NCBI RefSeq assembly: GCF_001447785.1
Contig: NW_015173718.1
Coordinates: 178,539 to 242,101 of the forward strand
Source of the DNA: Gekko japonicus
Lineage: Eukaryota
Length of the DNA stretch: 63,563 nt
Direction of reading: 5' to 3'
Made by a program: the position numbers. Below are positions 1-3,000 of this stretch, piece after piece (position 1 is the stretch's first letter; the number at the start of each line of letters is the position of its first letter).

Positions 1-3000
1 CACAGGAGGTGGCGGTGGCTACAAGCATGGACGGCTTCAAGAGGGAATTAGATAAGCATATGGAGCAGAGGTCCATCAGTGGCTATTAGCCACAAGGTAT
101 AGATAGGAACTCTCGGTCTGGGGCAAGAGCTGCTCTGTATTCTTGGTGCTTGGGGGNNNNNNNNNNNNNNNNNNNNNNNNNNNNNNNNNNNNNNNNNNNN
201 NNNNNNNNNNNNNNNNNNNNNNNNNNNNNNNNNNNNNNNNNNNNNNNNNNNNNNNNNNNNNNNNNNNNNNNNNATTTGGCTTCTCTTACGTTCTTATGAT
301 CCCTGTATTACAGACTGTGGAACAAGGCTAGGAAGCCCACCGGGTGAACTTGGTCTGGTCACAAACCATCAGCTGAGCTCAACTCACAGGGCTGTTGCGA
401 GGATAAAATGGAGGAGAGGAGAATGATGTCAGCTGTTTTGGGGGTCCCCACTGGGGGAAAAGGAGGGATATAAATGAAGTACATAAATAAATATCACAAG
501 GAAGGGACTACAGCCGAGAAGACCCTGCACTATTGTCAGGAAGGGTCCCTGGGCTCTATGTACGATTTGATTCCCCAACCTGACCACTTACCTTTTGCCC
601 TGGAATCCCAGGTATCCCAGGGGCACCTCTCTCTCCCTGGGACGGGTCCCTGGGCTCTATGTACGATTTGATTCCCCAACCTGACCACTTACCTTTTGCC
701 CTGGAATCCCAGGTATCCCAGGGGCACCTCTCTCTCCCTGGGACCCTGGAATCCCTGGGTTGCCGCGGATACCCTGGATGCCTTGTGCCCCCGGAGGTCC
801 CGGTGCCCCAGGCTCGCCCTAGTGGGAGAAAACCATAATTTTCAGGAACGACATAAGTAAAAGTGTTACAAGCAGAAATATATTCCATCTCTATACCATC
901 ATCTCTCTCCTATCTCATTTTAACTGGAGATAATTAGAGATGATCCAGGATTCTGTGCCAACGAGGATCCAATGCTAAAGTTTTGTGTTCTCTTTGCAAT
1001 CAGGACGGCCTTTTTCCGACTCAGGTAACACAATTTGATAGATAGATCCAGATGGTCAGCCGCATTGGTCTGAAGCAGTAGAACAAATTTAGAATACAGT
1101 GGTCTTAAAGGTGCCACTGGATTCATACTTTGTTTTGTTAACCACAGTTAGTCTTAAATACGGTTCTGCATTCTGTACAAACATGGACATCGTAGCTTAC
1201 TCCTGGCTAGGGACATATGAACACCTGCCAGTTTGGCTCATGCTCTGTTCACTGATCACAAGCAGGGACGATTTTTCGAGGACTGGTTCAGTAAGTCATC
1301 AATCTGTTTGCCGGTATTCAACATGTTGCTTCACTGTATTTATTCCTAGCCATGCATTGCGACTGAGGGGTGACATGATTGAGGTTTATAAGATTATGCA
1401 TGGGAAAGAGCAGGTAGAGAAAGAGGTACTTTTCTCCCTTTCTCACAATACAAGAACTCGTGGGCACTCCATGAAACTGCAGAGCGGTCGGGTTAGAACG
1501 GATAAAAGGAAGTACTTCTTCACCCAAAGAGTGATTAACACTTGGAATTCACTGCCACAGGAGGTGGTGGCGGCTACAAGCATGGACGGCTTCAAAAGGG
1601 AATTAGATAAGCATATGGAGCAGAGGTCCATCAGTGGCTATTAGCCACAAGGTATAGATAGCGGCTCTGGGGCAAGTGATGCTCTGTCTTCTTGGTGCTT
1701 GGGGGGGGGGCAACAGTGGGAGGGCTTCTAATGTCCTGGCCCCACTGGTGGACCTCCTGATGGCACCTGGTATTTCTGGCCACTGTGTGACACAGAGTGT
1801 TGGACTGGATGGGCTTTTGGCCTGATCCAACATTGGCTTCTGTTATGTTCTTATGTTAACGTCTGAACCGTAATATGATTCCGAATAAACTGCAAAGAAA
1901 ACTGCACATTATCCTCAATAATGTTCCCTGGACTATGAGAAAAGACAGATGCCATGCCTAGATGCTTCATGTGTGAGGAAAACAGATGCACCTATTAGAA
2001 AGTTTATTTATATACAGCCATAGGGAGCCATCTACACATCCCAAAGGCAATACAAGTGACTGAAACAACTGGGGCAGTCTACTGCAAAGGCTGACAGGAC
2101 CCAGTCAGCAAACAAGGAACTCTACTGAACCTTTTGAAGGAACATTAGCACCTCAGCAGAGGTCAGCTTGGAGCAGAATCACAGAAAAGCAAGTGTGAAT
2201 AATTCAAAGACAGTTGGGGAAAACATAGCATGCCATTAAGTATTACCTTTTTACTCCTTGAAAGCCTGAGCCGTGTGACTGTCCCAAACTGTCCAAAATA
2301 TTCTTTGAGCTGCGGCTCATGAAGGCCCCGAGGGATATGGCCCACGTAGATGACGCCCGGCGTCAGCTTCTCATCCTGTGAGACAAAGGGAGGAAAACAC
2401 CAACCATTTTGTCATCCCAAATGTTATTTAGCAATTTCAGGGGTGCTGCACACATCTGATGATCACAGGAAATGGATTTCAGGGCACAGATGTGGTGGGG
2501 AACAAGCAACACCTGATCTGGCATGCTGCCAGTCAGAAAGGCAACTCACAACTGCAGTAAATATAAAGAGTTAACGAGTAGATCTATGAGACTTGCTGCC
2601 TACGGTTAATTACATCACAAAGGGGTTTTTTTAAGTTTCCCATATTCCTCCTCTTCTCATGGAAATGAGCCAGAGCACTATTAGGAACCTATATGAAAAC
2701 TGCAGCCCCCAGAAAAACCCTACTTATTATGAATTTAGATAGCTCTTCACAACTATAAGCTGCCTCAGTTGTTTTCAAACCCTGTCAGCGGGGGAGATGT
2801 AAAGTTCATTGTACACACTCCAACTTAAAAAAAACGGAAATTTTCGGAAAAATTGAAAAAAATGCTACATTAGCATTTCTTTTGTCTTTTCTAGATTGAA
2901 AGTCATTCTGTTACTTTAGGAACATAAAAAATGACTATGGACATTTTTACTTGGCATGAAATTATCACAACTAGCATATTAAAAATATAGTGTACCCAAA

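What the first reader, a model, noticed from the sequence alone, without database searches (positions are those of the whole stretch)
693..818. Intact in-frame collagen exon downstream of NIFK exon 2: captured exon or NIFK-collagen chimera
Seen: a 126-nt (14 x 9 nt) exon of uninterrupted Gly-X-Y triplets, with a pyrimidine-rich acceptor and a consensus AAG|GTAAGT donor. It is on the NIFK strand, 1.43 kb past the phase-0 donor of NIFK exon 2, with no gap in between. No other collagen exon and no NIFK exon 3 was found in the window. Known: collagen helix exons are phase 0 and multiples of 9 nt, and vertebrate NIFK has no collagen segment. Inference: direct splicing would be in frame. It would either insert 42 collagen residues in the middle of the RRM, or make a chimera in which a duplicated NIFK promoter and exons 1-2 drive the 3' part of a collagen gene. 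It could also be a silent relic of a rearrangement, or a misjoin.
Basis: partly seen in the sequence, partly recalled or inferred. Interest (0 to 1): 0.75.

Follow-up and report, generated by a model that had tools for sequence, protein, structure and literature searches.

The report
Misplaced collagen exon inside gecko NIFK
A perfectly intact exon of a type VII-like collagen gene sits inside the ribosome-assembly gene NIFK in a short-read draft gecko genome, most likely because a small piece was put in the wrong place during assembly and not because the two genes are fused.

Summary
The exon is there as described: window 818..693 (-), 126 nt, 14 unbroken Gly-X-Y triplets, a good acceptor and an AAG|gtaagt donor. 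100 shuffles gave runs of 5 triplets at most.

It is the orthologue of one conserved 42-residue exon of the COL7A1-like paralogue (col7a1l): 40/42 to the gecko Paroedura picta, 39/42 to other lizards, 81-93% to birds.

The window matches Gekko japonicus. NCBI's model XP_015278829.1 ("NIFK", 240 aa) already splices this exon in. That model has only RRM profile positions 1-33 of 70, then collagen, then NIFK's C-terminal part.

Of 32 NIFK-type proteins scanned, only that model carries collagen.

The ~1.1-kb collagen piece is bracketed by two same-orientation copies of a high-copy repeat, one broken by an N gap. It also carries a 2 x 101-nt 99% tandem duplication. The genome was assembled from Illumina reads with SOAPdenovo and SSPACE.

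Best reading: a repeat-mediated assembly chimera that produced an annotation artefact (about 0.72). A real recent insertion is not excluded (about 0.2). No read data or gecko genome could be searched. Interest is low.

The parts
693..818 (-). 126-nt phase-0 collagen exon (42 aa, 14 Gly-X-Y), orthologous to one exon of the COL7A1-like (col7a1l) gene
   Evidence: Pfam Collagen E 1.8e-08. 40/42 to Paroedura picta XP_077196918.1 residues 1880-1921; 39/42 to Podarcis and Hemicordylus.
819..845 (-). Pyrimidine-rich acceptor region ending in ag
   Evidence: Read directly...aaaattatggttttctcccactag|GGCGAG.
687..692 (-). Consensus donor gtaagt after CAAAAG
539..744 (.). Tandem duplication, 2.0 copies of 101 nt, 99% identical. 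It covers the last 52 nt of the exon plus 49 nt of the following intron.
   Evidence: TRF (score 405); the repeat finder family D3; self-BLAST 539-643 against 640-744 at 99.05%.
592..636 (-). Second, partial copy of the exon's 3' end ([15 protein letters not shown], 5 triplets), preceded by ...cccgtcccag and followed by a second gtaagt donor at 591..586
   Evidence: It could be read as a 45-nt in-frame mini-exon; that is an inference only.
1461..1867 (.). Interspersed repeat copy A, lying between the start of NIFK intron 2 and the collagen segment
   Evidence: up to 10 further partial copies in the 63.5-kb window (for example 58257-58657 at 89.6%, 33188-33589 at 78.7%, 4590-4776 at 94.7%).
1..300 (.). 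Interspersed repeat copy B, same family and orientation as copy A, interrupted by the N gap 157-273 and running off the window's left edge
   Evidence: 1-156 matches 1556-1705 at 91% on the same strand. 274-300 resembles the element's start as read. Gap coordinates.
349..482 (.). Fragment of a second repeat family downstream of the exon
   Evidence: 78% match to 40573-40705.
2247..2375 (-). NIFK exon 2 (N-terminal half of the RRM)
   Evidence: 43/43 to XP_015278829.1 residues 44-86. Pfam RRM_1 profile 1-32/70. Human NIFK chain 8fkp_SH residues 40-81, E 1e-12.
5438..5566 (-). NIFK exon 1, coding part, from the ATG
   Evidence: 43/43 to XP_015278829.1 residues 1-43; donor AAAAAG|gtgagg.

Best explanation
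The exon is the gecko's own, normal COL7A1-like (col7a1l) exon. A piece of about 1.1 kb (roughly window 300-1460: the exon plus flanking intron) was wrongly placed inside NIFK intron 2 when the Gekko japonicus draft genome was built from short reads. The joins run through copies of a very abundant interspersed repeat on both sides. The genuine NIFK exons for the second half of the RRM are missing from this stretch of the assembly. The stray exon is phase 0, a multiple of three, and has strong splice sites, so the gene-prediction pipeline used it to bridge NIFK exon 2 to NIFK's C-terminal exons and produced XP_015278829.1. Shown: the exon's identity, its repeat bracketing, the adjacent gap, the truncated RRM in the model, the uniqueness of the fusion, and the short-read assembly method. 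Inferred: that the join is artificial and that the model's junction has no transcript behind it.
For: (1) The window gives 43/43, 43/43 and 42/42 identity to three consecutive parts of XP_015278829.1 from G. japonicus, which sits on a 451,617-bp scaffold.
(2) The exon is the orthologue of a fixed 42-residue unit of col7a1l. It is 95.2% identical to Paroedura picta, 92.9% to Podarcis and Hemicordylus, 81-93% to birds, 76% to a shark and 67-69% to two teleosts. COL21A1 reaches only 48-67%. Three database models (P0045, P0090, P0105) skip a neighbouring exon exactly at one of its ends. This is how a working exon under constraint looks.
(3) The segment is bracketed by same-orientation copies of one repeat family that has up to 10 more partial copies in the window. 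One join still holds a 117-N gap.
(4) There is a 2.0-copy, 99% tandem duplication of 101 nt at the exon's 3' end. A second exact 25-residue tandem repeat occurs further on in the same NCBI model. Both fit unmerged overlaps or gap-filling errors.
(5) The genome was assembled from Illumina HiSeq2000 reads with SOAPdenovo and SSPACE (PMC4673495, Methods passage).
(6) The model has RRM_1 profile positions 1-33 of 70 only. Against flycatcher NIFK (P0359), 130 residues between the exon-2 end and the PTPxCTP motif are replaced by 42 collagen residues plus 2 x 25 repeated residues.
(7) Of 32 NIFK-type proteins, 1 (the model itself) has Pfam Collagen. 19 continue with the (T/N)xxx(K/R)GY(A/G) RNP1-type stretch right after SRSK(K/R).
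(8) No other col7a1l exon lies in the window, using 5 relatives as queries.
(9) In Xenopus tropicalis, NIFK lies on a 91,218,944-bp sequence and the col7a1l-type gene on a 153,873,357-bp sequence. The neighbourhood is therefore not ancestral.
Against: There is no N between NIFK exon 2 and the collagen exon, and 274-17884 is one gap-free stretch. The upstream join would therefore have to be a closed gap or a contig-level error inside repeat copy A, and I saw no visible breakpoint there. I could not show that the exon is missing from its home locus: no G. japonicus col7a1l protein appeared in the best 120 of any of three searches. That is only a weak negative, because each search listed the best 120 only and scored a capped set of candidates. 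NCBI's pipeline did accept the junction, and whether RNA-seq supports it is unknown to me. Intactness of the exon is equally expected from a very recent true duplication. No reads, long reads or other gecko genomes could be examined. GapCloser is not named in the main text of PMC4673495 (0 occurrences), and its supplements were closed.
Confidence: 0.72

Rival explanations
1. Real DNA-level insertion: a recent duplication copied a ~1-kb fragment of col7a1l, exon included, into NIFK intron 2 of G. japonicus, perhaps by recombination between copies of the flanking repeat. The exon is normally skipped or rarely included. The missing NIFK exons are a separate assembly hole.
For: The sequence is gap-free from NIFK exon 2 to the exon. 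The exon and both splice sites are intact. The flanking same-family repeats could mediate real recombination as easily as an assembly error. The 101-nt tandem duplication could mark a copy that is free to change.
Against: It needs two coincidences at one spot: a rare insertion, and loss of the true NIFK RRM exons from the assembly. Nothing distinguishes the copy from a working orthologue: 40/42 to Paroedura, with no stop or frameshift. A gap sits inside the downstream repeat. The assembly is short-read only.
Confidence: 0.2
2. Functional NIFK-collagen fusion: the gecko really makes the 240-residue protein of XP_015278829.1, with a collagen stretch in place of the second half of the RRM.
For: The splice is in frame and both sites are strong. 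NCBI predicted it.
Against: The RRM would lose profile positions 34-70. The RRM is the part seen in solved pre-60S particles of human, fission yeast and budding yeast (NIFK, C1827.05c, Nop15). From recall, Nop15 is essential in yeast. 1 of 32 NIFK-type proteins has collagen, and that one is the model itself. 42 residues without a trimerisation domain is not a usual collagen unit (my knowledge). A text search for the accession and for 'NIFK collagen' or 'MKI67IP collagen' found 0 papers.
Confidence: 0.02
3. The locus is really col7a1l, and NIFK exons 1-2 are the displaced or duplicated piece.
For: Only one side of the exon can be seen in the window. The preceding and following col7a1l exons could lie beyond long introns.
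Against: In NCBI's model on the same scaffold the collagen exon is followed by NIFK's own C-terminal region (hNIFK_binding at 176-209). No other col7a1l exon lies in the 63.5 kb.
Confidence: 0.04

Closest known systems
COL7A1-like (col7a1l) collagen gene of non-mammalian vertebrates, e.g. Paroedura picta XP_077196918.1 (P0121, 2301 aa), residues 1880-1921
   Same: The 42-residue unit is the same, with 40/42 identical. It is Gly-X-Y throughout. Exon limits coincide with the unit in three alternative database models. The family carries VWA, FN3, collagen and Kunitz domains (Pfam columns).
   Different: Here the exon stands alone. None of the neighbouring col7a1l exons (GEPGIGFRGP... before, GERGKRGRNG... 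after) is in the window. It lies between NIFK exons and carries a 101-nt tandem duplication at its 3' end.
NCBI model XP_015278829.1, 'MKI67 FHA domain-interacting nucleolar phosphoprotein' [Gekko japonicus]
   Same: It is the same sequence and the same splice: exon 1, exon 2 and collagen exon are each 100% identical to the window. The 'chimera' is therefore already in public databases as an automatic prediction.
   Different: The record names it plain NIFK. Nothing I could see in the record's name flags the collagen segment or the truncated RRM.
NIFK / Nop15 family (RRM protein of pre-60S ribosomal particles)
   Same: Exons 1 and 2 are ordinary NIFK. Exon 2 matches human NIFK 40-81 at E 1e-12, with fission-yeast and budding-yeast homologues next.
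   Different: Normal members go straight from SRSK(K/R) into the RNP1-type strand (19 of 32) and have no collagen (31 of 32).
Chimeric gene models caused by misjoins in short-read draft assemblies
   Same: The assembly is short-read SOAPdenovo/SSPACE. The joins lie in high-copy repeats, a gap is adjacent, local tandem duplication is near-perfect, true exons are missing, and an unrelated in-frame exon was recruited by the predictor.
   Different: This is not proven at read level here. The general phenomenon is from my own knowledge. Of the literature I saw only a search listing (e.g. PMC7852129 on short-read misassembly in a plant genome) and did not read it.

Membership tests
COL7A1-like (col7a1l) exon | Uninterrupted Gly-X-Y, phase 0, length a multiple of 9 nt | tested here: met
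   126 nt, 14 triplets; Pfam Collagen above cut-off.
COL7A1-like (col7a1l) exon | Best and position-specific match to col7a1l rather than to other collagens | tested here: met
   76-95% to tetrapod and shark col7a1l at one fixed position. COL21A1 reaches 48-67%. True COL7A1 (about 3,100 aa) reaches about 40-57% over the surrounding region.
COL7A1-like (col7a1l) exon | Lies among the neighbouring exons of the same gene | tested here: not met
   tblastn of 5 col7a1l relatives hits only 818-543, plus low-complexity chance matches near 39.8-40.3 kb at 27-31% identity.
NIFK | Complete RRM (RNP2 and RNP1 halves) | tested here: not met
   The window has only the first half (RRM_1 profile 1-32). The NCBI model has 1-33 of 70. 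No exon 3 in the window.
NIFK | C-terminal Ki-67 FHA-binding region | tested here: inconclusive
   Present in XP_015278829.1 (PF12196, 30.2 bits), but encoded outside the window, so I could not read the DNA.
NIFK | No collagen segment in family members | tested here: met
   31 of 31 other NIFK-type proteins lack Pfam Collagen. These 31 were chosen from the 150 listed: one matched stretch, at least 72% identity, at least 150 aa.
Repeat-mediated assembly chimera | Short-read de Bruijn assembly plus scaffolder | tested here: met
   PMC4673495 Methods passage: HiSeq2000, SOAPdenovo, SSPACE.
Repeat-mediated assembly chimera | Foreign segment bounded by high-copy repeats and/or gaps | tested here: met
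   Repeat copies at 1461-1867 and 1-300, gap at 157-273.
Repeat-mediated assembly chimera | Read pairs or long reads contradict the join, and the segment is absent from its true locus in the assembly | not testable with these tools
   No reads and no eukaryotic genome collection were available. No G. japonicus col7a1l protein was seen (best 120 of each), which is a weak negative.
Genuine exon capture / exon shuffling | Parent copy retained elsewhere, and junction reads in transcripts | not testable with these tools
   No genome or RNA-seq data could be reached.

The most novel reading that the evidence does not exclude
The join is real. In Gekko japonicus a ~1-kb col7a1l fragment was recently copied into NIFK intron 2 by recombination between flanking repeats. 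That placed a ready-made, in-frame, splice-competent collagen exon (and a 45-nt duplicate of its end) inside an essential ribosome-biogenesis gene. This would be a caught-in-the-act case of exon shuffling, in which occasional inclusion would break the RRM.
Probability: 0.15. Interest if true: 0.45.

Novelty: not a real feature. Interest (0 to 1): 0.12.

Why it matters
If the join is an artefact, the value is practical. XP_015278829.1 and its UniRef copies are a faulty NIFK entry with a truncated RRM, a foreign collagen exon and a duplicated 25-residue block. The gecko's col7a1l gene is probably missing this exon at its true place. Both errors can mislead orthology, domain-architecture and gene-family studies that use this draft genome. 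If the join were real, it would be a rare, very young example of an intact exon moved between unrelated genes, with a testable cost to an essential protein.

Tried and rejected
1. I looked for the G. japonicus col7a1l protein to see whether it lacks this exon. I ran three searches: 42-aa query, proteins of 75-2000 aa; Podarcis region 1330-1640, 1090-3469 aa; Paroedura region 1760-2200, 30-1264 aa. None from G. japonicus appeared among the best 120 of each. The only Gekko hit, P0254 (G. kuhli, 280 aa), does not cover the exon. This line is inconclusive.
2. Is the collagen part of a larger collagen gene in the window? Rejected. The only other runs of 5 or more triplets are the duplicate at 592-636 and chance runs at 39.6-39.9 kb and 45.3 kb. 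The 39.8-kb tblastn matches are 27-31% identical Pro/Gly-rich noise.
3. MARCO, C1q-type or COL21A1 as parent? Rejected. They reach 48-67% against 93-95% for squamate col7a1l.
4. I ran Pfam on the ten longest gap-free stop-to-stop ORFs, hoping to name neighbouring genes. There were 0 families in 10 of 10.
5. Rfam and ARAGORN gave only tRNA-like matches elsewhere in the window.
6. Literature: 0 papers for the accession or for 'NIFK collagen' / 'MKI67IP collagen'. The 'col7a1l' search gave 13 papers, which I saw as a listing only; the listed titles are mostly zebrafish studies and one human COL7A1 case report. The GapCloser / tandem duplication / misassembly search was seen as a listing only and nothing was read.
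7. I made no spliced model of my own and searched none. Exons were searched one by one, and the joined step was left out. NCBI's own joined model was used as retrieved.
8. Not used: structure prediction, complex prediction, the protein atlas, and genome contigs (bacteria and archaea only, so not relevant).

Full report
**What is in the sequence**

On the minus strand, window 818..693 is a 126-nt open stretch of 14 uninterrupted Gly-X-Y triplets ([42 protein letters not shown]). It is preceded by ...ggttttctcccactag and followed by gtaagt. Pfam Collagen matches above its cut-off, at 34.5 bits against 27.2. The run is not chance: in 100 dinucleotide-preserving shuffles of the window, the longest Gly-X-Y run in six frames was 3-5 triplets, against 14 observed.

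NIFK exon 2 is 2375..2247 (-) and NIFK exon 1 is 5566..5438 (-). Exon 2 matches residues 40-81 of the human NIFK chain in pre-60S structures (8fkp_SH, E 1e-12). The fission-yeast and budding-yeast homologues come next.

It repeats the last 52 nt of the exon and the first 49 nt of the intron. This gives a second [15 protein letters not shown] (636..592) with its own gtaagt.

**Whose exon it is**

I searched with the 42 residues alone against proteins of 75-2000 aa. The search returned one 100%/100% hit: P0115 = XP_015278829.1, 'MKI67 FHA domain-interacting nucleolar phosphoprotein' of Gekko japonicus, 240 aa, on a 451,617-bp scaffold. All three exons in the window are identical to it. I therefore take the window to be G. 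japonicus; it is not human.

The nearest collagens are 'collagen alpha-1(VII) chain-like' proteins. At one fixed position they carry the same 42-residue unit:

- Paroedura picta (a gecko): 40/42.
- Podarcis and Hemicordylus: 39/42.
- Birds: 81-93%.
- A shark: 76%.
- Two teleosts: 67-69%.

COL21A1 reaches 48-67%. True COL7A1 proteins (about 3,100 aa) reach only about 40-57% over the surrounding region, while the 2,000-2,900-aa 'like' class reaches about 60-79%. One teleost entry is named col7a1l. Three database models break exactly at one end of the unit (P0045, P0090, P0105), so the unit is one exon in other species too. The exon is therefore an ordinary, strongly conserved col7a1l exon.

**What surrounds it**

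NCBI's model joins NIFK exon 1, NIFK exon 2, the collagen exon, an exactly repeated 25-residue block, and NIFK's C-terminal region.

- Pfam sees RRM_1 profile positions 1-33 of 70, Collagen at 85-129, and hNIFK_binding at 176-209.
- Residues 129-240 are not encoded in the window, so they lie to the left of position 1.
- NIFK therefore flanks the collagen exon on both sides. This rules out 'NIFK promoter plus collagen 3' part'.
- Against flycatcher NIFK (P0359), the 130 residues between the exon-2 end and the PTPxCTP motif are replaced by 42 collagen residues plus 2 x 25 repeated residues.
- Seven NIFK relatives used as tblastn queries find exon 2 (7 of 7) and nothing beyond it better than E 0.44.
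- Five col7a1l relatives find only the exon and its duplicate.

**Is a NIFK-collagen fusion known elsewhere?**

I searched exon 2 alone against 1.84 billion representatives (2,086 hits at E up to 0.001, 150 listed). I took the 31 listed hits with one matched stretch, at least 72% identity and at least 150 aa, and added P0115. The other 118 listed hits were left out as multi-RRM proteins, short fragments or more distant sequences.

- Pfam found RRM_1 in 29 of 32, hNIFK_binding in 9 of 32, and Collagen in 1 of 32. The one with Collagen is P0115.
- After SRSK(K/R), 19 of 32 continue with the RNP1-type stretch.
- 10 run on into what looks like unspliced intron.
- 2 lacked the motif.
- 1 (P0115) continues with collagen.

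**Why I think the join is artificial**

The collagen piece (about 300-1460) is bracketed by two copies, in the same orientation, of one interspersed repeat: 1461-1867, and 1-300 running off the edge. The family has up to 10 more partial copies in this window alone. The downstream copy still contains a 117-N gap. Another copy abuts the gap at 38237.

The genome paper states that assembly used Illumina HiSeq2000 reads with SOAPdenovo and SSPACE (PMC4673495; I saw one Methods passage). GapCloser is not named in the main text, and the supplements were closed.

Several features together are what a small contig wrongly scaffolded or gap-filled through repeats looks like:

- A ~1-kb unique piece between repeats.
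- A remaining gap.
- A near-perfect 2.0-copy duplication.
- A second exact duplication in the same gene model.
- The absence of the gene's true middle exons.

The exon is phase 0 with strong sites, so a predictor that has lost the real exons can use it to keep the frame.

Biology points the same way. A NIFK without the second half of its RRM is unlikely to work, because this RRM protein is a built-in part of pre-60S particles. That Nop15 is essential in yeast is recalled, not tested. In Xenopus tropicalis, NIFK and the col7a1l-type gene sit on sequences of 91.2 Mb and 153.9 Mb. The two genes are therefore not old neighbours.

**What speaks against this, and what is open**

- The upstream join has no N and no visible seam.
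- I could not find a G. japonicus col7a1l model to show the exon is missing at home. Each search listed only the best 120 of a capped candidate set, so this is weak evidence.
- I do not know whether RNA-seq supports NCBI's junction.
- A very recent true duplication would look just as intact.
- No eukaryotic genome collection, reads or transcript data were available.

**Verdict**

| Reading | Confidence |
|---|---|
| Assembly chimera giving an annotation artefact | about 0.72 |
| Real but silent recent insertion | about 0.2 |
| NIFK exons 1-2 are the displaced piece | about 0.04 |
| Functional fusion | about 0.02 |

The 'chimera' is already in public databases as an automatic prediction. A text search for the accession and for 'NIFK collagen' or 'MKI67IP collagen' found no paper. 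Interest is low. The useful outcome is a flag on a faulty database entry and on a probably incomplete col7a1l locus in this draft genome.

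Noticed in passing
outside the window (NCBI model XP_015278829.1 = P0115, residues 129-178): The model contains an exact tandem repeat of a 25-residue block (AAQIPLKKKTPSNSDTNVDVSENNE, twice). It is a second perfect duplication in the same gene and suggests another local assembly duplication to the left of the window.
   Followed up: partly
window 592-636 (-) with flanks 586-645: The duplicated exon end is preceded by ...cccgtcccag and followed by gtaagt. 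On paper it could be spliced as a 45-nt, in-frame, five-triplet mini-exon after a 56-nt intron. No evidence that it is used.
   Followed up: partly
window 23258-23318 (+), 43493-43565 (-), 56925-56996 (-): Three tRNA-model matches at 40-43 bits (Rfam). ARAGORN calls only the middle one, as tRNA-Ala with anticodon GGC. They may be tRNA-derived SINE heads rather than genes.
   Followed up: no
window 63122-63495: Two tandem 186-nt units (89% matches), belonging to the same interspersed repeat family that brackets the collagen piece.
   Followed up: partly
window 17885-18758, 22230-22247, 38237-38841, 44153-44690, 55312-55816: Five further N gaps besides 157-273. A copy of the repeat family ends exactly at the 38237 gap (38186-38236). 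The gaps were left as they are.
   Followed up: no
window 1360-1409 and 26644-26693: A 50-nt stretch, 98% identical in inverted orientation, lies just inside the collagen-side edge of repeat copy A. Its nature is unknown.
   Followed up: no
window 5600-63563: The ten longest gap-free stop-to-stop ORFs (182-314 aa) gave no Pfam family (0 of 10). No gene other than NIFK was identified in the window.
   Followed up: partly
database lists, not the window: The col7a1l class (about 2,000-2,900 aa; VWA, FN3, collagen, Kunitz) is often labelled 'COL7A1', 'COL7A1-like' or 'uncharacterized' in birds, turtles, squamates, amphibians and fishes. I noticed no mammalian entry among the 120 proteins listed. 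Whether mammals lack the gene was not examined.
   Followed up: no
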